Part shown: positions 8,065 through 58,220 of the stretch, one piece after another
Layout of the letters: each line of letters begins with the position of its first letter
Position numbering within the stretch: the first letter of the stretch is position 1
Assembly (NCBI RefSeq): GCF_006345805.1
Contig: NC_043003.1
Span: 23,870,001-23,934,000, forward strand
Direction of reading: 5' to 3'
DNA from: Octopus sinensis
Taxonomy: Eukaryota
DNA length: 64,000 bases
Position numbers and translations under genes: made by a program
The notes under the pieces: generated by a model
The model's database searches: none
What the model saw: the letters and a program-made list of their open reading frames with translations, nothing else
What the model was told of the DNA's origin: nothing

Positions 8065-8610
8065 ATTTCCTTACTGCCTACAAGGGGCTACATACAGAGG
8101 GGACAAACAAGGACAGACAAACGGATTAAGTCGATTATATCGACCCCAGTGCGTAATTGGTACTTATTTGATCGACCCCGAAAGGATGAAAGGCAAAGTC
8201 GACCTCGGCGAAATTTGAACGCAGAGAGTAACGGCAGACGAAATACCTATTTCTTTACTACCCACAAGGACAGATAAACGGATTAAGTCGATTATATCGA
8301 CCCCAGGGCGTAACTGGTACTTATTTGATCGACCCCGAAAGGATGAAAGGCAAAGTCAACCTCGGCGAAATTTGAACTCAGAACGTAACGACAGACGAAA
8401 TACCTGTTTCTTTACTACCCACAAGGACAGATAAACGGATTAAGTCGATTATATCGACCCCAGTGCGTAACTGGTACTTATTTAATCGACCCCGAAAGGA
8501 TGAAAGGCAAAGTCGACCGCGGCGGAATTTGAACTCAGAATGTAGCGGCAGACGAAATAACGATAATGATTTCACCCGGCGCGCTAACGTTTCCGCCAGC
8601 TCGTCACCTT
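8065..8610 (-). mobile_element. Head-to-tail trimer of tRNA-derived SINE family B (Meta-domain-like core)
   Basis: Three copies of ...GATTAAGTCGATTATATCGACCCCAG...ATCGACCCCGAAAGGATGAAAGGCAAAGTCGACC...AATTTGAAC...CAGACGAAATA. Junctions at 8247/8248 and 8404/8405 (157-bp period). Only the last unit keeps the A-box head. Confidence 0.9.
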
Positions 8611-12777: not shown

Positions 12778-12971
12778 ATGACCAGAACTCGGGAAACTTA
12801 GTTTAGTGTTCTATGGTCTATGACCAGAACTCGGGAAACTTGGTTGAGTGTTCTATGGTCTATGACCAGAACTCGGGAAACTTGCTTGACTGTTCTATGG
12901 TCTATGACCAGAAATCGGGAAACTTGGTTCAGTGTTCTATGCTCTATGACCAGAACTTGGGAAACTTGGTT
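12778..12971. repeat. 42-bp minisatellite, ~4.6 copies
   Basis: ATGACCAGAACTCGGGAAACTTGGTTGAGTGTTCTATGGTCT starting at 12778, 12820, 12862, 12904 and 12946. Confidence 0.95.
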
Positions 12972-13660
12972 GTGTCCTCATCTTATAAAATGTGGCCCCA
13001 GTAGACCCAAATTAAATCGGGTTATATTAACCAAAAGGTGAAAAGGGGTATAAATGGGGCTGGAAGGGGATTAAAATTTAAAGGAGCGGGTGTTTAGCAA
13101 TTCTCTGTTACATCAAGCTAAAAAATTTGCTCCAGCCTTTTAATCGCCAATGTGTTGCCGTCCATGATGAAGAAGTTTTCAATGCTTGCCATCGTGAGTC
13201 TAATGTCGTGAGAAAGAATCAAGTCAAAACTTGGTTTTTAGGGATTTTCTTTACATCAAGTTCAAACTTTTACGCCAGCCGTTGAACTGTCAATACGTTG
13301 CTGTCCGTCGTTAAGAAATGCCAGCCATGGTGACTCTACTATCTTCAAATTCTATCCCTTCAAACTTGGTTTCCAATATTTTATTATTTTTATTCAGCTC
13401 GCAAGTTCGTCTGTCCCTTTTAATGTTAGTGTTTTTTTGTCTGTCTTCAAGCAGACCTTTCCTTTGTAACTGCCTGATATTTATGATTGATCTTTCTAAA
13501 TATTTTATTTCTCAACTTACTCAAGATCTTCTGTTGTTTATAAATGGGAGAGAGATACATAAAGATAGAGAGTAAGAGAAAGCGAGGGAGAGTCCGAGAG
13601 AAAGGAAGAGTAAGAGAGTGGGAAAGTGAGAGAGAAAGGAGAAAGAAACAAATAGGGAGA

Positions 13661-44769: not shown

Positions 44770-45438
44770 TATATATATTATTATCATTATTATATATTTA
44801 TCACTGTATAAAAATAACTTTCGCATTCGCCTTTCCTCTGTAACTTATCAAGTTTCCGAGTTTGTTTACAAAATATTATATGTAATTCTCGACAGTTATA
44901 TTATCTGTGCATCGATTTAACTGAAAATTATGGGTAAGTATTCAGGCTCAATTGCAAGGAACCATATTAGCGTTGATTTGTGGGTTCGATTCCAGCCGGG
45001 AATTAGCTCATCCTTTTTCAGTAAGTTATTTAGTTAAATGTTGCTTTAATCGGAGTATATATATATTATTATTATTATGATGATATATCATTGTATAGTT
45101 ATTGTATAAAAGTGACCTTCGCAGTCGCTTTTCTTCTGTAACTTATCAAGTTTCCGAGTTTGTTTACAAAATATTATATGTAATTCCCGACAGTTATATT
45201 ATCTGTGCATCGATTTAACTGAAAATTTATGGGTAAGTATTCAGGCTCAATTGCAAGGAACCATATTAGCGTTGATTTGTGGGTTGGATTCCAGCCAGGA
45301 ATTAGCTCATCCTTTTTCAGTAAGTTATTTAGTTAAATGTTGCTTTAATCGGAGTATATATATATATATTATTATTATTATGATATATTATTGTATAGTT
45401 ATTGTATAAAAATGACTTTCGTAGTCGCTTTTCCTCCG
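44770..45438. repeat. Recent ~298-bp tandem duplication (~2.2 copies)
   Basis: CTGTAACTTATCAAG at 44838 and 45136; near-identical units joined at AT-rich or (TA)n spacers. Confidence 0.92.
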
Positions 45439-46047
45439 TATATAAATATATATATGTATGTATATGAACATATCTATGTATATGAATATATCTATTATGC
45501 TTACGTATTCATTTTGAAAGATTTCTGATGCAAAATCGTGTGTAGAAACATATATTGTTATATGACGGAATGAAGACCCGAGGAATGGAGAGTTGCTGAA
45601 GGGGACACAGGCTGTGAGACGAAGAGTGCAAAACATTACATCCCGAAATATATATATATATGCATATATATACCACTCCCATTTACACATTTGCACTACG
45701 ACACCCTTAATATATGTATATCATTGAAAAGTCTGTCTGTATTGGTGTCTAGGAAGTAGACCTTATTGAGGGGCAGACGAGAACGACTGATGCGCATTTC
45801 GCCTTTGCAGTCTGACATGAAATCGGATCGTCCTACATTTCCACATATGCAGCAAGTTTCAAAATTTGACATGACTATTAAAGCACTATTCAGTCGTATG
45901 GTATAAGAAACAGAAGATACATTGATAAATATTTTGTTTCTATATTTTACTTCAATCTTACTTTACTTTGTCCGTAAATTATACATTCAGAACCATTATG
46001 TCCTAAGTATTATTCCATGCATTCATTTAACACCATATATATATACA

Positions 46048-47192: not shown

Positions 47193-48730
47193 ACACACAC
47201 ACACACACACACACATATTGTTTTATATGCAGAAATTTGTTGTGTTTTGAAGCTGTTCGAAACTTAAGATTTTAGGTTGTGTCACACAGTGCGATAAATA
47301 GAAGAAATGTTTTATACTATAGCCCTGAGGAAATTTGTCAAATGGTAAATTCATTATTGTTCTCAATAGTTGCATTCTAGAATTTCTGGCCTCGACCAAT
47401 GATGCTTCTTACTACTTTGCTATTTTCTAAAATGTTTTAAATTATAATTCTCTTTACATCTAGGATATATTATAGCTGCGTGTTACATAGAGAAAAGTGA
47501 TTAGCCGGGCATGTAATTACTGTGTGATTATGCAGTGTGATTTCAAAAGTAGGGGAGAAATAACCATGTTTAAAAAAATCTTTTAATTATTTCAGTTGGT
47601 ACACTCTGGCAATTATCTTTTTAACGTAAGTAATGTTAATATTACATTGCTATTAGATATATTCTTTCTCTTCACTTCCATAATGTATGTAACAATATTT
47701 GATTATGTTCCTGCATGTTAAATACAAACAAACAATACACCACACTTGTTTTGTTTTCTTCAAAAGGGAAACAATGATCTCCATGACATGGATGTGCTTT
47801 TCAATACACATAAACGTAATAGATTTACGATGATATTGTGTTTAATAACAAACAATAGCCGTATCAAAAATGCATCGAAGTATGTGTGTGGTGTGTGTGT
47901 GTCTCTCTCTCTCTCTCTCTCGCTCTCTGTTCTCTCTATCTCTCTCTCTCTCTGTATATATTTATTGACTGTATTTAGGCAGTAGCTTTTCGTTGTTTTC
48001 TAAATGCAACTTCTTTGACGTAATTTCGTTTCATTTTGTAGCTATATATATATATCGGATCCGACAGGGAGAGTCGTGTATCGTCTTTGCTCTGTTTAAA
48101 AAAGCAGAAAGTGTGCATAAATCGGTGAAATAATCTACTGAAAGTCACAAATTCAACTCATAAAGCCCACTACAACACTTCGGCTACAAATATATTAATC
48201 AAAAACGTAATATATTTTGCCTGAAGCCAAACACAGTAATAATTTTTTCTTTTCACCGAAAACGCACATGGTGGAAAAAAATCCACTGTAGAAGGAAAAA
48301 GAAACATCTCCTGGAAAATAACCACGAAAAAAAACCACGAAAAATCCAGACAACATCGTTGGATTAAGTATCACTTTCATCTCTATTTCATATTTTGTTT
48401 ATTATCCTATTTTATATAACTTAAGCCCACATCCCGTTAAAGTTTACGATCGCATTTTTTGTTTGTTTACATTTCAATAACTGTCTCGAACTTGGCTTCA
48501 AAATTAAATAACCCTTTCTTCACATTTAAAAATATATATATTTTAATATATTTCACTCATTTTCTTTCTTTTTTTTCACCTTCCTTCTCTCCCCGTCGGT
48601 GTATATGTGTATGTGTGTGCACGTGTATGTATGTGGTGTGCGTGTATGTATATATGTATGCGTATATATGCATGGACGTGAACTTTCACGAACTTTATAT
48701 AGATAAATAATCTTTCCCCTTTGTTACCTC

Positions 48731-49385
48731 TTTCAGATACTCCATCTTCTAATTAGCCTTAAGATTAAATAACGTTTAATACTGTTTATTGTTAATAATT
48801 TTTCAGATACTCTATCTTCTAATTAGCCTTAAGAATAAACAACGTTATTACCCACACTTTAACATCTAATTTTTTACCCACACTCTAATATCTTTCTAAT
48901 TAGCCTTTTTACCCACATTTAAAATTTGTTAATATATTTTCAGATACTCTATCCTCTGATTAGCCTTAAGATTAAATAACGTTTTTACCCACACTTAAAT
49001 TTTTCACCCACACTTTAATATATTTTTGAATACTCTACCTTCTAATTAGCCTCAAGATTAAATAACGATTATTACCCACACTTAATTATAATTGTAATAT
49101 TGTTAACATACATTTTTCAGATACTCTATCCTCTAATTAGCCTTAAGATTAAATAACGTTTTTACCCACACTTTAATATATTTTTGAATACTCTACCTTC
49201 TAATTAGCCCCAAGATTAAATAACGATTATTACCCACACTTTAATATAATTGTAATATTGTTAACATATTTTCAGATACTCTATCTCCTAATTAGCCTAA
49301 GATTAAATAACGTTTTTACCCACAAACTTTAATATTGTTAATATTAATAATACTCTATCCTATAATTAGCCTTAATATTAAATAT
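48731..49385 (+). repeat. Tandem array of ~9 units (about 60-90 bp spacing) immediately 5' of LINE ORF1
   Basis: Core ATACTCTATCCTCTAATTAGCCTTAAGATTAAATAACG...TTACCCACAC; units start at about 48734, 48804, 48881 (partial), 48941, 49028, 49118, 49186, 49273 and 49349. Confidence 0.93.
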
Positions 49386-49443
49386 CTTCTTGTCTTCTCT
49401 CGAACATAGTTAAATAGATAAACAAATAGACACATCATCCAGC

Positions 49444-50411
49444 ATGTCCAGAGCATGGAGACCTGACGAGCTGGATTTATTCGTACAAGCATGGGAGTGC
49501 GCCGGCGGAGATAGCTCTAGCGAGGTGATTGCGGCTGCGCTGAAAAGCAGAGGCTACAAGAGGACAGCGGCTCAGATGGAGCGAAAGAGACGGGAATTCG
49601 TGCGCTCATATGCGCTTGTACGGTCGCACATTGGCGCATTTGATGCCATCTTTGAGAACGAGCGGGGCAAAGATGACAAGAATGGAGACGATGAAAGAAG
49701 TCACCCCCACCTGGTGGATGCCCGGGAGGAGGTTTTGAATGAGAAACCTGCCCGGGAAGTGAACCCAGGTGCAAGTTCTCCAACCGGCACGGCAGCAAAG
49801 GCCATGGAGACGGAGAACCCGGTGAAGAGGTAGAGAGGGAGGAGGAAGAACTAAAAGAAGGGCTGGTAGAGCTAAAGGAAAAGCTCAAGCAGGACCAAAG
49901 GGTGTGAAAAAACCAGGAATAGAAGTGGAACCGAAAAAGATGGAAACGGACAGCGCACACGGGTGTGTAGGTTCTACCTGAGAGGTTCCTGCTGGCATGG
50001 AAAGGAAGGTGCAGGCTGCCGCTTTGCACATCGGGGACCCTGCCACAGAGACACGAGGCAGATGGACAAACCATCAACACAAGGAAAAGGATGGACCACG
50101 CACCACTTGCCCCAAAGCGGAGGTACGCAGATGTTGTGCGTGCCACAAACCACCAACATGATGTTGTCGAAAGGGCAGCTGCTGAGCAACAATCTTTTTT
50201 GTGCATGGCACAAAAGATTGTACAGCAGCTGACCTGGCTTCATCAAACCCAAGCCCGCAGGTGGGACTACCCACTATACACCAGACCACCACCACAGCAA
50301 CAGACCCAGGATGGACACCACCGGCAACAACGTACACCTCACCTCGATGCTCCTACTGAACATCAGAGGACTGCAAACAACTCAGTAACAGGACAAAAAT
50401 CCCGTTCCTGA
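49444..50411 (+). pseudogene. LINE ORF1 (frame-disrupted): trihelix/Myb-SANT-like domain, acidic coiled coil, CCCH zinc finger
   Basis: MSRAWRPDELDLFVQAWE...EVIAAALKSRGYKRTAAQMERKRREFVRSY; shifted frame EEVEREEEELKEGLVELKEKLKQ; CRFYLRGSCWHGKEGAGCRFAH (C-x7-C-x8-C-x3-H); YADVV motif. Confidence 0.75.
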
Positions 50412-53292
50412 GAGATTTTGTTGCATGCAATCAAGCCTTATGCATAGCACTAACGGCAACGCACCTGAAACCGGATATAGCAGATGCGGAGTTACACATA
50501 CCACAGTATGCTGTACTACGGACCGACAGGAGAAAGGAGTCATGGAGGTTGTTGCTATGTACATCCGTGAGGACCTCACACCCCAGGTCCTCTTGTCATA
50601 CTCAAACTCGGTGTGTGACACACTAATTGTACATATTAGGCAACTTGATGTAGTTGTGTGTGCTACATATCGCCCTCCAGATGCCCCAAGCCATGTGGGC
50701 AAGTTTGAAGACTGCCTTATAAAAATAGAATAAGTTCTAACCACATTAGAACAACACATAAGTGTACTTCTTATGGGAAACTTCAATCTGCCAAATGCCA
50801 GATGACCCGAGGGCCTTTCTCTCCCAAGAATGACAAGATGTGAACGAGGACAGGCGAGGTCCCTCCTGAACCTCATCAACACCCTGTACATGGAGCAGGT
50901 AATACTCCAACCAACCAGGGCAGGTAACACACTGGATCTCTGCTTCACAAATGATATGGATCTCATCCATAATGTGAAAGTGACACCGACACTACTCTCG
51001 GATCACAACATGATAGAGCTGACCATGTACGGGCCAAAAGAGAGCACAGACATGCAGCCTACAAGAAACCCAGAATCTTTCCAGCTTGAACTACCATAAG
51101 GCAAACTGGAAACAATTGAGAAAGAGATCCTCAAACAAAACTGGCCTAAATGTCTCTCCTCGCCAGACATCGACGTGAAACTTCAACAATTCATGTCTGT
51201 AATGCAAGCCATATGCTACAAATATGTCCCAGAGAGAAAGGCCACTGTACACAAGAACCAAAATCCCCAGAGAGAGGAAAATTCTAATGAGACGGCGTAC
51301 AAAATTTTCAAATCGCCTAAACAAACAGATTGAAAGCAGTGAAAAGTCCCGCCTAAAAATAAAACTGTGGAAATCGAAAAATGTCTGAAACTCTCCCATG
51401 AAAAGGAAAGAGCAGACAAAGAAGCCTGGGCTATAGACAACATAAAATCTAACCCCAGAGCTTTCTACAGTTATGCCAAAGAAACAGCTACGGTGCACTG
51501 TAGAATAGGGCCACTCCTCGACAAGGATGGCACACTTACAGGAAAACCAATGAGGTTAAGTGAAATACTGAATGAGCAATTCAAGAGTGTTTTCACTCCA
51601 CCCCTTGGGCATCTCCAAATCACCAATCCAACTGACTTTTTTACTACTGCAGATATAAAATCAGAGGCGGCGACGATAGATTACATCGATATAAAGGAAG
51701 ACGATGTAATCAAGGCTATAGATGAAATGAAAACAGACTCAGCTATTGGCCCGATGGATTCCCGGCAATCCTCCTAAAAGCATGTAAGAGAGTCCTAGCA
51801 AGACCACTGCAGTTCCTCTTTCAGAGCTTCCTTGCAGCTGGCAAACTTCCAGAAAACTGAAGGAAGGTAAAATATGCCCCATTCATAAAGGAGGTAGCAG
51901 AGCGGAAGCCAAGAACATATAGACCTATCTCTCTGACCTCACACATCAGCAAGGTCATGGAACAATAGTCAGAAGGAAGCTGATCACCTTCCTTGAAGAA
52001 AATGACTTGCTGCCCGACACCCAACATGGTTTCCGACGAGGGAGAGGCTGTTTAACTCAGCTCCTACAACACTATGACTGGGTGCTGAAACGGCTGCTCA
52101 ACCACTCAAATGTGGAAGTGATATATCTCGACTTTGCAAAGGCCTTTGATAAAGTCGATCATGGAATGATATGTCACAAACTGCGTGATCTCAACATAGT
52201 TGGAAAACTGGGAGAATGGCTTCATGACTTTCTGAAAGATAGAAGTCAGGTGGTAGTGGCCAATGGGGCCACTTCCATTAACACGCAAATAGTGAGCGGT
52301 GTTCCGCAGGGCACTGTCTGGGACCACTACTGTTCAAATGGCCCTCTCAGACATGCCCTCAGCCACGCAGAGAGCCACGATCACAAGTTATGCAGATGAT
52401 ACAAAAGTTTCACAAGCAATACAGAACCCTGAGGACACTAAACACCTGCAATGTGAGCTAGACAAAATATATAAGTGGGCCGAAAAGAATAGCATGCAGT
52501 TCAATGCTGAAAAGTTTCAAGCTCTATACTATCAGCATGCAAAACTAAATGCAATACCCAATGAATACACTGGACCCGGAGGAATAGCAATCCAGAGGCA
52601 CAATCAGTGCGTGACCTAGGTATTTACATGAGTGATGACGCGACCTTTCGTGTACATGTTGCTAATTGGCAATGAAATGTAGACGACTGGCCGGATGGAT
52701 CCTCAGAACCTTTAGGACAAGAGAACAAGAAACATGATGGTCCTCTGGAGGACACTTGTCCTAAGCCACTTTGAATACTGCTCTCAGTTATGGTCACCAT
52801 CCAGTGTCAAGTTGATCACAGAGCTCGAAGCGATCCAACGTAGCTACACGAAGAAGATAGCCTCTATGCAGAATGTAAGCTACTGGGAAAGACTCAGGAA
52901 ATTAAAATTATATTCCCTGGAGCGTAGGCGGGAAAGATATGCCATAGTATATTCTGGAAGATCCTGGAGGGAAGTGTCCTTACTTTGGCATCGAGAGTTA
53001 CGCAAATGCCAGAACTGGGCGCCACTGCGTGGTGCCTAGGACTCCAAACTTGCCATCAAGATGTAGGACAAGATTCTGTGATAGCCTGGGCTTCCGAGGC
53101 CCACAGCTCTTCAATATCTCCCGAAGAACCTGAGAGACCTGCATGGGGTGGATACAGATGTCTTTAAAATGAAGCGGATCTCTTCCTGTCAGGTGTCCCA
53201 GATGAACCAACTTCACGGCAGGAGGGGAGATGATGGCAGCTGCATCGAACTCTCTCATGCACCAAATAGCAGTTGCTAGAAAGCCTTCATGA
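50311..53292 (+). pseudogene. LINE ORF2 (frame-disrupted): apurinic endonuclease plus reverse transcriptase
   Basis: APE: LLLNIRGL, HLKPDIADAELHIPQY, YRPPD, LLMGNFNLP, PTRAGNTLDLCFTN, LSDHNMI. RT: YRPISLTS, QHGFRRGRGCLTQLL, YLDFAKAFDKVDH, SGVPQG, YADDTK. C-terminus: EYCSQLWSP, YWERLRKLKLYSLERRR. Confidence 0.95.
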
Positions 53293-53476
53293 AGTGAAAC
53301 CAAGTAGCAAACACCAAATGGCGGTGCCCCAGCATGGCCACAGCTCATAAGCTGAAACTGGAAAAATCAAAATCAAAATCAAATCAAATCAAAATCAAAT
53401 CATGTTTTACGGTTTCCACATTTGAGGTTCGATCTTTCTTCATGATGCATACAACGCCGCCGATCTTTCCACATGT

Positions 53477-56519: not shown

Positions 56520-57684
56520 ACTTTTTAAATCTGGTGTAGTATTTCGGTTAACATACTTAATGTTTGTATGTCTATTTGCTTTGCTCGTTTCATGCTATCA
56601 TTTATTAATGATGTTGGGTAATGTCTCCTGATTAGTGTTGATTTACGTTCAAGGTGTCTTCGTTCACGATTATTGGTATCTGAAACTTTTCGCTAGGTTA
56701 TAAGGTATATTAATTTTTATGTGTTTGGGTTAACATGATTTGAATAATAGGTATTGTTTTGAATCTGTGGGTTTATAGATGTCCGTTTCGGTGTGGTTAT
56801 TGGTTATTTTAATTAGGATGTCAAGAATGGAAGTTTTTTATTGTTGTATTCCATTGTGAATTGTATATTGCTATTGATATTGCCGATCATTATTTTGAAA
56901 TCGACGAGTTTGTCCATGCTGTTGTTCCAAAGTAGGAAGCAATCATTTAAGTATCTCTTCCAGTTCTCCTTAAAATAGCAATGCAAACGAGGTACCGCAT
57001 TTTGAAATGATAATTGGTATATTTTAAGTTCTATATAACCCATTACAACGTTCGAAATCACTGGGGCAGCTCGAGTTCCCATTACTATTCCACATTTGTC
57101 GATAGTAAACTATATCGAACATGGCATAGTTGTTCTGTAGGATAAATTTCACTGCTGCAATTATGACGTTATGTTTGATGTCTCGTGGGATCTCTTCTTG
57201 GTATTTTTCTAGCTAGAAAGTAATTGCTTCTATACAAAAATCGTGTGGGATATTAGCGTACAAATTTACCACATCGAATGATACTAACAGGGTTCCTTCA
57301 TTTATTGTTTTCGGGACGTGTTTAGAATGTCTAAATCATCCGTGATGAAGCTTATCACATATTTTTTAAATGGTTTAAGATGTCGAGGCAATAGCTCAAA
57401 CGGTGGGTTTCACAAGCAGGCTCAGCACTGCTGGGTCTTAGATTGAGGTCAGTAGTGGGAGGAACATTAATGTATAGGCTTGGAAAATGTTTGCAAGCTT
57501 TACTAATATGTGGATTTCTGTGTATTTTAGGTAATCCGTAGAATAGACATTGTCTGCATTTAAAAATGGATAAATAGTCAATTTCTGTTTTAGTGAGGCC
57601 CTTCCCATGTATTGGAAGTAAGAAGGATATGTTTTTAAAGTTCTTTAAGTGTTATAGTGCTCTATCTTCTCATAGTAAATATAG
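56520..57684 (-). pseudogene. Penelope-like reverse transcriptase and thumb (inverted 5' half, degenerate)
   Basis: FYGLPKIH, LLVSFDVVNLYANIPHD, FILQNNY, MGTRAAP..SNVVMG, WKRYLNDCF, IQFTMEY..KLPFL, YKPTDSKQYL, YPTSLIND. Confidence 0.9.
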
Positions 57685-58220
57685 TTTTCCACACACAACC
57701 ATAGAAATAATGAGACCTTCAACCTCATCATCCGAAACCTACCCATTCTCACTGGAGATAAAGCAATGAACAACATTTTAGGCTTACACAAAATTATCAA
57801 GAACAAAACGCGACCGATATCATCGAAAAAATATTAAGCAGCGAAAGACTATATCCATTAACAACGGCACCAAAAGTGTAAAATGCGGGTGGCTTAACTG
57901 TGGCACATGCCCCTACCTTTTGAAAGGTACAGAGTTTCACCTTCAAGTTTCTCCTGCACCTTTGAAAACTGCTATTACCTCCTTAGGGTGCAGAAATTAC
58001 TAAATAGACCAAACAGGTATGCCATTCCGACGAAGAACAACACTTCAAAAAGAACAATTCCGCTACGCACAATATATACAGGTCAGTGGGTGCATAGGAA
58101 GATGTGCTAGGAACCTTAAACCGAAATTCCTAATTTTCTCTTTTTATCAATGTTCACAGAACACCTCTGTACAGTAAATAGGCAAATTTCATTATTAAAT
58201 ATTATCCACTACTCAACATG
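57685..58220 (+). pseudogene. Penelope-like linker and GIY-YIG endonuclease region (degenerate)
   Basis: STHNHRNNETFNLIIRNLPIL...KIIK, KCGWLNCGTCPYL Cys motif, FSCTFEN, terminal FIIKYYPLLN. The GIY and YIG cores themselves are eroded. Confidence 0.72.

What the first reader, a model, noticed from the sequence alone, without database searches (positions are those of the whole stretch)
48731..50411. LINE whose ORF1 looks like a trihelix DNA-binding protein, directly behind a tandem array of GT-box-like motifs: candidate self-regulating module
Seen: the array ends about 60 bp before the ORF1 ATG. It contains eight exact TTACCCACA (minus strand TGTGGGTAA[A/T]) plus one variant, and a TAATTAGCC core in almost every unit. 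Seen: ORF1 begins W-x3-E-x2-L...IAAALKSRGYKRTAAQMERK. Established: this resembles the Myb/SANT-like trihelix family (Myb_DNA-bind_4/GT-1 type, IAxxLxxxGYxRTxxQCxxK), and plant trihelix factors bind GGT(A/T)A(A/T)-type GT elements. CR1/L2 ORF1s typically carry PHD, RRM, esterase or CCHC modules. Inference: the element may encode a transcription-factor-like protein that binds multimerised sites in its own 5' promoter array, with the CCCH finger binding RNA. I cannot establish novelty without a database search.
Basis: partly seen in the sequence, partly recalled or inferred. Interest (0 to 1): 0.8.

Follow-up and report, generated by a model that had tools for sequence, protein, structure and literature searches.

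The report
Octopus retrotransposons carry Myb-like domain
This is a broken copy of a common jumping-gene family, likely from an octopus, whose first protein carries a predicted Myb-type three-helix domain and a zinc finger, an apparently undescribed pairing, but the repeat array in front of the gene likely is a recent, fast-changing stretch of the leader rather than that protein's binding site.

Summary
A 9-unit array with 8 exact TTACCCACA ends about 60 bp before the ORF1 ATG of an APE-RT LINE (48055-53402). It precedes ORF1 in 19 of 19 other top copies. The ORF1 N-terminus is Myb/SANT-like: Pfam PF13837 scores 21.8 bits (below cutoff 27), AlphaFold gives three helices, and the top fold matches are Myb/trihelix domains. 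Many sister LINE copies pass the Pfam cutoff. A CCCH-type finger follows, and the Myb region is under purifying selection. The self-regulation idea is poorly supported. The array lies about 680 bp inside the 5' UTR, behind a conserved DPE-like 5' end. Sister subfamilies with 93-98% identical ORF2 and similar helix 3 carry unrelated arrays or none. Two copies with the array-type helix 3 end in the other UTR type. With the same helix 3, only 36 of 153 units of subfamily A2 keep the motif. Verdict: a new ORF1 architecture (Myb/SANT + CCCH) in octopod CR1-like LINEs, not found in my literature searches (Repbase and Dfam not searchable). DNA binding is untested.

The parts
48055..53402 (+). Near-full-length non-LTR retrotransposon (APE-RT LINE, CR1-like), subfamily A1; this copy is broken by frameshifts
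   Evidence: 5' homology with other copies begins at 48043-48055 and 3' homology ends at 53380-53400; 27 indels vs natural copy L045
48055..48370 (+). Conserved 5'-terminal segment, likely the core internal promoter: CGTG (DPE-like) at 48075-48078 and TAAGTA at 48365-48370
   Evidence: CGTG, GCTCTG and TAAGTA are invariant in 11 of 11 aligned 5' ends spanning subfamilies with different arrays; CGTG DPE in LINE promoters per PMC4748587 passages; promoter activity untested
48371..48730 (+). Non-array, pyrimidine-rich 5' UTR segment
   Evidence: Shared with A1 copies at 90-96% identity
48731..49385 (+). Tandem array in the 5' UTR: 9 units of 60-91 bp, core TAATTAGCC, 8 TTACCCACA
   Evidence: present before ORF1 in 19 of 19 other loci returned (3-20 cores within 1.5 kb)
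49444..50359 (+). ORF1 (302 aa in unbroken natural copies; here broken by five small indels)
   Evidence: Unbroken 298-303 aa ORF1 in L041, L043, L045, L046, L047, L054, L059, L060; breaks
49444..49653 (+). Myb/SANT-like three-helix domain (ORF1 aa 1-70)
   Evidence: PF13837 E 2.5e-4, 21.8 bits; AF2 pLDDT 87.9 with helices 7-23, 25-35, 42-78; VIA Z 7.7 to RAD and LUX Myb, 7.4 to GT-1
49966..50031 (+). CCCH-type zinc finger, C-x7-C-x8-C-x3-H
   Evidence: Pfam Torus E 3.7e-4 and zf-CCCH E 0.0045, both below cutoff; conserved in families A, E, F, H, I
50118..50240 (+). Conserved C-terminal ORF1 segment (RRYADVV...SFLCMAQKIVQQLTW), the most constrained part; possible oligomerisation helix (inferred)
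   Evidence: dN 0.02-0.04 vs dS 0.14-0.36 against L111 and L152
50311..53292 (+). ORF2: apurinic endonuclease + reverse transcriptase, overlapping the end of ORF1; broken here
   Evidence: Natural unbroken ORF2 in L053: RVT_1 E 8e-31, Exo_endo_phos_2 E 5.5e-12, no other Pfam domain
53293..53402 (+). 3' UTR and (AAAATC)n tail (53363-53402)

Best explanation
The window holds a broken copy of a multi-copy LINE whose ORF1 has a predicted Myb/SANT-like three-helix domain, a CCCH finger and a conserved C-terminal segment; the protein likely packages the element's RNA and likely uses the Myb domain as a loosely specific DNA or chromatin grip, while the array is likely a recent tandem amplification of one older 5' UTR segment and not the domain's dedicated site. 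Shown: the anatomy, the array in other copies, the same ORF1 design in at least nine LINE families of this genome, purifying selection on the Myb region, and wholesale turnover of the 5' UTR repeats. Inferred: host factors start transcription at the conserved 5' end (DPE-like CGTG), about 680 bp upstream of the array. Also inferred: the CCCH finger binds RNA, and the Myb domain fills the slot that PHD fingers fill in other CR1/L2 ORF1s, tethering the particle to chromatin. The 5' cassette (UTR plus Myb-coding start) is likely exchanged by recombination onto a shared ORF2, as mouse L1 does with its 5' UTR.
For: Domain: PF13837 E 2.5e-4; 17 of 27 aligned relatives hit PF13837 at E<=0.05, best 1e-8. 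The top 9 VIA rows are Myb, GARP, trihelix, TEAD, SANT or Zeste domains. Breadth: 20 of 20 fetched PF13837 loci (L091-L110, picked from the multi-copy groups among 150 scored matches) lie next to a related LINE ORF2. Selection vs L041: Myb dN/dS 0.13/0.43 (L111) and 0.21/1.18 (L152); linker 0.10/0.21 and 0.30/0.40. Array turnover: L113, L116, L125 carry CT-rich 85-133 bp units and L139 a 42-bp unit. TTACCCACA count is 0 in 5 of 5 A3 and 6 of 6 E copies with a readable UTR boundary, and 1 in L124, which holds the unit as a single copy. It is 0 in 20 of 20 further loci, 7 of them re-fetches and some truncated. Same helix 3, different content: 67 of 101 A1 units vs 36 of 153 A2 units carry the motif. 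L156 has the same helix 2/3 as L159 (14 motifs) but a CT-type UTR end. Gradient: copies 93-98% identical in most ORF2 bins are only 70-83% identical in the first 110 nt of ORF1. Proteins sharing the family C CCCH cluster have a PHD hit upstream (P0150, E 5.5e-4).
Against: No binding, expression or localisation data. Subfamily A scores below the Pfam cutoff, Foldseek found nothing at E<=0.001, and VIA Z under 8 can reflect a common helical arrangement. The array-bearing subfamilies do share a helix-3 variant (TAAQMERKR) that differs from the CT-array subfamilies (TI/VAQIERKK). That fits protein-site co-evolution, though it is one event. L121 and L156 are 5'-truncated (about 100 and 140 bp of UTR), so an upstream site is not excluded. 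P0150's link to a LINE was not shown. The chromatin-tether role has no direct support.
Confidence: 0.58

Rival explanations
1. Self-regulation through the array: ORF1p binds the multimerised TGTGGGTAA sites in its own 5' UTR and represses or activates the element.
For: The array precedes ORF1 in 19 of 19 other top copies. The fold resembles GT-1 and other DNA-binding Myb domains. Array-bearing subfamilies share one helix-3 variant. The UTR and Myb-coding region diverge together as a 5' cassette. Harbinger Myb-like proteins bind their own element's ends (PMC9392472 passages).
Against: The array is about 680 bp inside the UTR. It is absent from sister subfamilies with near-identical ORF2. The motif is lost from 117 of 153 A2 units and has a recurring TTATCCACA variant. 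Families B, C and D have the domain with short UTRs and no large array. The GT consensus GRWAAW (recalled) occurs 7.9 times per kb across the window anyway, against 19.8 per kb in the array.
Confidence: 0.1
2. Self-regulation at the true promoter: the domain is sequence-specific but reads a word in the conserved 5'-terminal 320 bp, not the array.
For: Helix 3 (R-T/S-x-x-Q-I/M/V-E-R-K-K/R-x-E) is conserved across families A, E, F and I. The 5' segment keeps invariant blocks across A1-A5 and E. The domain is basic in 5 of 6 families (pI 9.0-10.5).
Against: Family F keeps helix 3 but its 5' end looks unrelated (L182). The conserved blocks resemble host core-promoter words (DPE; ETS and YY1 recalled). 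No binding data.
Confidence: 0.14
3. The domain does not touch DNA. It is a SANT-like protein-interaction or RNA-binding module that builds the particle or recruits ORF2p or host chromatin factors.
For: It lacks the helix-2 and helix-3 tryptophans of host trihelix proteins L061, L062 and L065. SANT domains of DNAJC2, DMAP1 and MTA1 rank close to the DNA-binding matches. Family D's domain is neutral (pI 7.0).
Against: A basic, conserved helix 3 is what a DNA-binding Myb would keep, and most of the top fold matches are DNA-binding domains.
Confidence: 0.13
4. The array lies in a 5' UTR intron, and its units are duplicated splice acceptors.
For: Units begin TTTTCAG|ATACTC, and unrelated arrays in sister subfamilies also carry pyrimidine tract plus YAG. 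Families B, C, D and F have GTAAGTA or GTGAGTA donor-like words near their 5' ends.
Against: In A and E the matching word is TTAAGTA or ATAAGTA, with no GT. No genomic copy joins this point to an array unit: 0 matches against 119 matches for the upstream marker. None was found for family C either (no denominator).
Confidence: 0.05

Closest known systems
CR1/L2 (Jockey superfamily) LINEs and their ORF1 types I-V (Metcalfe and Casane 2014, PMC4120745)
   Same: Two ORFs, APE + RT with no other Pfam domain, short-repeat 3' tail, modular ORF1
   Different: Its Table 1 lists PHD, RRM, CCHC, Tnp22, esterase and zf/lz only; 'myb', 'sant' and 'ccch' occur 0 times in the main text. Same zero counts in the 2026 vertebrate CR1-group survey PMC13343379.
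PIF/Harbinger Myb-like (SANT-Myb-trihelix) protein and MSANTD genes (PMC9392472)
   Same: A mobile element encoding a trihelix domain of the Myb_DNA-bind_4 type
   Different: Harbinger is a DNA transposon whose Myb protein binds the element's ends and recruits the transposase. Here the domain is in a retrotransposon ORF1 with a CCCH finger, and the two core tryptophans are missing.
Mouse L1 5' UTR monomers and 5' replacement (PMC3600994 abstract; monomers in the listing)
   Same: Tandem repeats in the 5' UTR and frequent exchange of the 5' end between families sharing ORF2
   Different: Mouse monomers are the promoter at the 5' tip (recalled). Here the array is internal, behind a conserved unique 5' end.
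HTH_1-containing ORF1 of Coccomyxa L1/Zepp (PMC5203782)
   Same: A helix-turn-helix module reported in a LINE ORF1
   Different: LysR-type HTH hit in an algal L1, no CCCH; 'myb' and 'ccch' occur 0 times in that paper's main text
Plant GT-1 trihelix factors
   Same: Three-helix fold with a long third helix (VIA Z 7.4, 75 aligned, rmsd 7.1, 15% identity)
   Different: Tied with RAD, LUX, ARR1, TEAD4 and Zeste, which bind other words (recalled), so the match does not predict GT-box specificity

Membership tests
APE-type non-LTR retrotransposon | ORF2 with APE and RT | tested here: met
   on natural copy L053
APE-type non-LTR retrotransposon | Dispersed copies, 5' truncation, simple-repeat 3' tail | tested here: met
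   547 candidates; truncated copies and (AATC)n or (AAAATC)n tails
CR1 group / CR1 clade | RT groups with reference CR1-group elements | not testable with these tools
   No Repbase or Dfam references held; the tree has only unnamed relatives and one Argonauta protein. The CR1-like label rests on architecture and recalled C-terminal motifs.
Myb_DNA-bind_4 / trihelix domain (PF13837) | Pfam score at or above 27 bits | tested here: not met
   21.8 bits at best for subfamily A; many sister-family copies exceed 27 in the genome search, family B protein 27.0
Myb_DNA-bind_4 / trihelix domain (PF13837) | Three-helix Myb/SANT fold with long third helix | tested here: met
   AF2 with alignment pLDDT 87.9 and single sequence 81.6; VIA top rows. 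Predicted only; Z under 8.
Myb_DNA-bind_4 / trihelix domain (PF13837) | Core tryptophans in helices 1, 2 and 3 | tested here: not met
   W5 kept; helix-2 W is V/I and helix-3 W is R/K in clade A, L/I in B, C, D
GT-element-binding trihelix factor | Sequence-specific binding to GT boxes | not testable with these tools
   Needs EMSA or SELEX; comparative evidence argues against a fixed pairing
CCCH zinc finger (PF00642) | C-x8-C-x5-C-x3-H spacing or Pfam cutoff | tested here: inconclusive
   Four ligands conserved but spacing C-x7-C-x8-C-x3-H; 16.7-17.3 bits vs cutoff 20.5
L1-type terminal monomer promoter | Array forms the 5' end of the element | tested here: not met
   About 680 bp of conserved sequence precedes it

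The most novel reading that the evidence does not exclude
Octopod LINEs captured a trihelix transcription-factor domain into ORF1. Each subfamily carries a matched 5' cassette, a UTR plus a Myb variant that reads it, and these cassettes are swapped onto a shared ORF2. That would be a retrotransposon controlling its own transcription through ORF1p.
Probability: 0.2. Interest if true: 0.8.

Novelty: new variant of a known kind. Interest (0 to 1): 0.48.

Why it matters
LINE ORF1 proteins are known as RNA chaperones with PHD, RRM, CCHC or esterase modules. A Myb/SANT + CCCH ORF1, kept under purifying selection on two RT lineages only about 43% identical, adds a type to that list. It also gives a small, foldable domain with which to ask whether an ORF1 protein touches DNA or chromatin directly. 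If it proved sequence-specific for its own 5' UTR, it would be a rare case of transcriptional self-control by a LINE, acting on hundreds of genomic sites. The array alone is ordinary 5' UTR turnover.

Tried and rejected
Full-length ORF1 in the search for homologous proteins: 0 of 1902 candidates at E<=0.001. ESM Atlas: no usable hit for the whole protein; for aa 1-80 only leads under 0.9, several in Myb_DNA-bind_3/4 clusters. PDB sequence searches gave nothing meaningful. Foldseek had no match at E<=0.001. hhalign of A1 to host trihelix L062 gave E 0.006, probability 6%. Expression: no RNA holder listed on record, and no reads were laid, so expression and splicing are untested. Spliced-copy probes gave 0 matches. 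A metagenome scan for outgroup elements with their ORF1 gave 1 locus, 3' part only, so the outgroup ORF1 state rests on unlinked proteins P0148 and P0150. No target-site duplication was evident at this copy. Earlier findings: none by sequence or words. Rejected: the array as a satellite unrelated to the LINE and as the 5' tip. Also rejected: (TA)n targeting as evidence for a Myb role, since target choice in APE LINEs is usually set by ORF2 (recalled) and a SINE beside L060 is also flanked by (TA)n. Rows dropped: from the RT tree, 7 of 40 genome loci with no RT match or one under 170 aa; in dN/dS, L115's C-terminus is frameshifted and ignored.

Full report
OBSERVATION. The array (48731-49385) has nine ATTAGCC cores, eight exact TTACCCACA and one variant, and ends about 60 bp before the ATG at 49444. 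Downstream are endonuclease and RT fragments and an (AAAATC)n tail at 53363-53402. This copy differs from natural copy L045 by 52 substitutions in 3880 aligned bases and 27 small indels.

THE ELEMENT. A search of the own genome with the ORF1 start gave 547 candidates, 40 scored and 20 returned as loci. All 19 loci other than the window have 3-20 array cores within 1.5 kb before the ATG. Among 20 full-length fetches, 8 have an unbroken 298-303 aa ORF1 and L053 has an unbroken ORF2, so no repair was needed. ORF2 is APE + RT only. Homology upstream runs to about 48043-48055, so the 5' UTR is about 1.39 kb and the array begins about 680 bp into it. In 11 aligned 5' ends, CGTG about 20-30 nt from the end, GCTCTG and TAAGTA are invariant. 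A CGTG downstream promoter element is described for insect and trypanosome LINE promoters (PMC4748587, passages). That the promoter core lies here is inference. The genome is likely an octopod's: 4 of 10 Myb-domain relatives looked up carry names, all Octopus, and the only species-named hit among the 120 ORF2 relatives listed is Argonauta at 62%.

THE DOMAIN. aa 1-75 hit PF13837 at E 2.5e-4, 21.8 bits, under the 27-bit cutoff. AlphaFold2 gives three helices with a 27-row alignment (pLDDT 87.9) and without one (81.6). Foldseek has no significant hit, but its top rows include several Myb/SANT domains. VIA ranks RAD (Z 7.7), LUX (7.7), ARR1 (7.5), GT-1 (7.4), TEAD4 (7.2), DNAJC2 SANT (7.0) and Zeste (6.8) first. 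These are tied and under 8, so the fold fits but says nothing on specificity. Compared with host trihelix proteins, only the helix-1 tryptophan is kept. A phmmer search of 1.84 billion representatives found 22 hits at E<=0.001.

IT IS A CLADE-WIDE TRAIT. A genome search with PF13837 scored 150 matches, most over the cutoff. The top five have no LINE ORF2 nearby and look like host genes, but all 20 loci fetched from the multi-copy groups sit next to a related ORF2. Families B, C and D have Myb plus CCCH-like fingers, RT 40-44% identical to A, and 5' UTRs of about 330-600 nt with no large array; two C copies have a two-copy duplication of about 47 bp (part's output was cut). Families E, F, G, H and I are closer to A. 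The RT tree puts A, E, F, H and I with the Argonauta protein in one clade (100/100) and B, C, D in another (100/100). The domain was therefore either ancestral to both or moved between them. Between subfamilies the Myb region shows dN/dS of about 0.2-0.3 against 0.5-0.75 for the linker (L111, L152). Database proteins that share family C's CCCH cluster have a PHD hit (P0150) or a PHD-like cysteine pattern by eye (P0148) upstream instead. This suggests a PHD-to-Myb swap, but their LINE context was not shown.

TESTING THE PAIRING. (1) A3 copies, 73-76% identical over the first 80 aa and 95-98% in most ORF2 bins, carry CT-rich arrays of 85-133 bp; E carries a 42-bp array. TTACCCACA is absent from 5 of 5 A3 and 6 of 6 E copies with a readable UTR boundary, and from 20 of 20 more loci, 7 of them re-fetches and some truncated. 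(2) L124 holds the unit once with the older helix 3, and L125 holds a decayed version, so the array is an amplification of an older single segment. (3) With the same helix 3, 67 of 101 A1 units but only 36 of 153 A2 units carry the motif. (4) L156 and L121 have the array-type helix 3 with a CT-type UTR end, though both are truncated. In favour of pairing: all array-bearing subfamilies share TAAQMERKR against TI/VAQIERKK in A3, and the UTR and Myb-coding start diverge together (70-83% identity vs 93-98% in most ORF2 bins). That gradient is also what 5' replacement by recombination gives, as in mouse L1 (PMC3600994, abstract).

MECHANISM. Most likely, host factors transcribe the element from the conserved 5' end. 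ORF1p would then bind the RNA through the CCCH finger and basic linker and oligomerise through the constrained C-terminal segment. The Myb domain would give loose DNA or chromatin contact. The array would be tolerated or used by host factors; its TAATTA core resembles a homeodomain site (recalled). All of these steps are inferred. Rivals are scored in their sections.

LITERATURE. Searches combining ORF1 with Myb, Myb-like, SANT or CCCH and LINE, CR1, non-LTR or octopus listed no paper describing such an ORF1; I saw only the listings of those hits. Read as passages: PMC11203168, PMC10294476, PMC9392472, PMC4748587, PMC13343379, PMC5203782. For PMC4120745 I read passages plus part 2 of 6, including Table 1. 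For PMC3600994 I read the abstract. No supplements were opened; the domain tables of PMC5203782 and the element list of PMC4120745 could bear on novelty. Repbase, Dfam and most subscription papers were not searchable.

VERDICT. Observation confirmed; domain call supported; the self-regulating array is unlikely on comparative grounds but untested. New variant of a known kind, interest 0.48.

Noticed in passing
window 48365-48370; L093, L099, L110, L182 5' UTRs: A 5' splice-site-like word sits a few hundred bases into the 5' UTR in the six families examined: GTAAGTA or GTGAGTA in B, C, D, F, but ATAAGTA or TTAAGTA in A and E. It could be a U1-binding site that cannot splice (speculation). No spliced genomic copies were found.
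   Followed up: partly
3' flanks of L041-L060, L111-L130, L180-L199: 22 of 34 copies with a readable tail have (TA)3 within 16 nt of it, against 9% of random 16-mers in the window. 5' junctions are also often (TA)n.
   Followed up: partly
window 53323-53362 vs 35951 (-) and 33592 (-): The LINE's 3' end (GGTGCYCCAGCATGGC...GAAAC) is shared with two short repeats in the window that look like SINEs, suggesting this clade mobilises them.
   Followed up: no
L182 5' end; L116, L198, L195 5' ends: Family F begins with CAAGATGGCG (YY1-like, recalled) and several A and E subfamilies with CTTCCGG (ETS-like, recalled), hinting at different host factors.
   Followed up: no
L195, L196 vs L045: These copies are about 58% identical in the Myb region (aa) but 92-96% identical in most of ORF2 (nt), a clear mosaic.
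   Followed up: partly
L063, L064 (G000:C11304): Two non-LINE Myb_DNA-bind_4 ORFs are the host sequences closest to the B, C and D domains (E 1.7e-7 to 4e-5 in a small pairwise set); possible kin of the donor.
   Followed up: partly
L044: An insertion of about 1.7 kb splits this copy at the ORF1/ORF2 junction.
   Followed up: no
window 8107-8559, 44805-45440, 12778-12972: Other tandem repeats: 157-bp x2.9 (SINE-like), 299-bp x2.1, 42-bp x4.6.
   Followed up: no
window 56813-58110: Minus-strand ORF fragments at 56813-57651 and plus-strand fragments at 57782-58110 look like decayed Penelope-like RT/GIY-YIG pieces (by eye).
   Followed up: no
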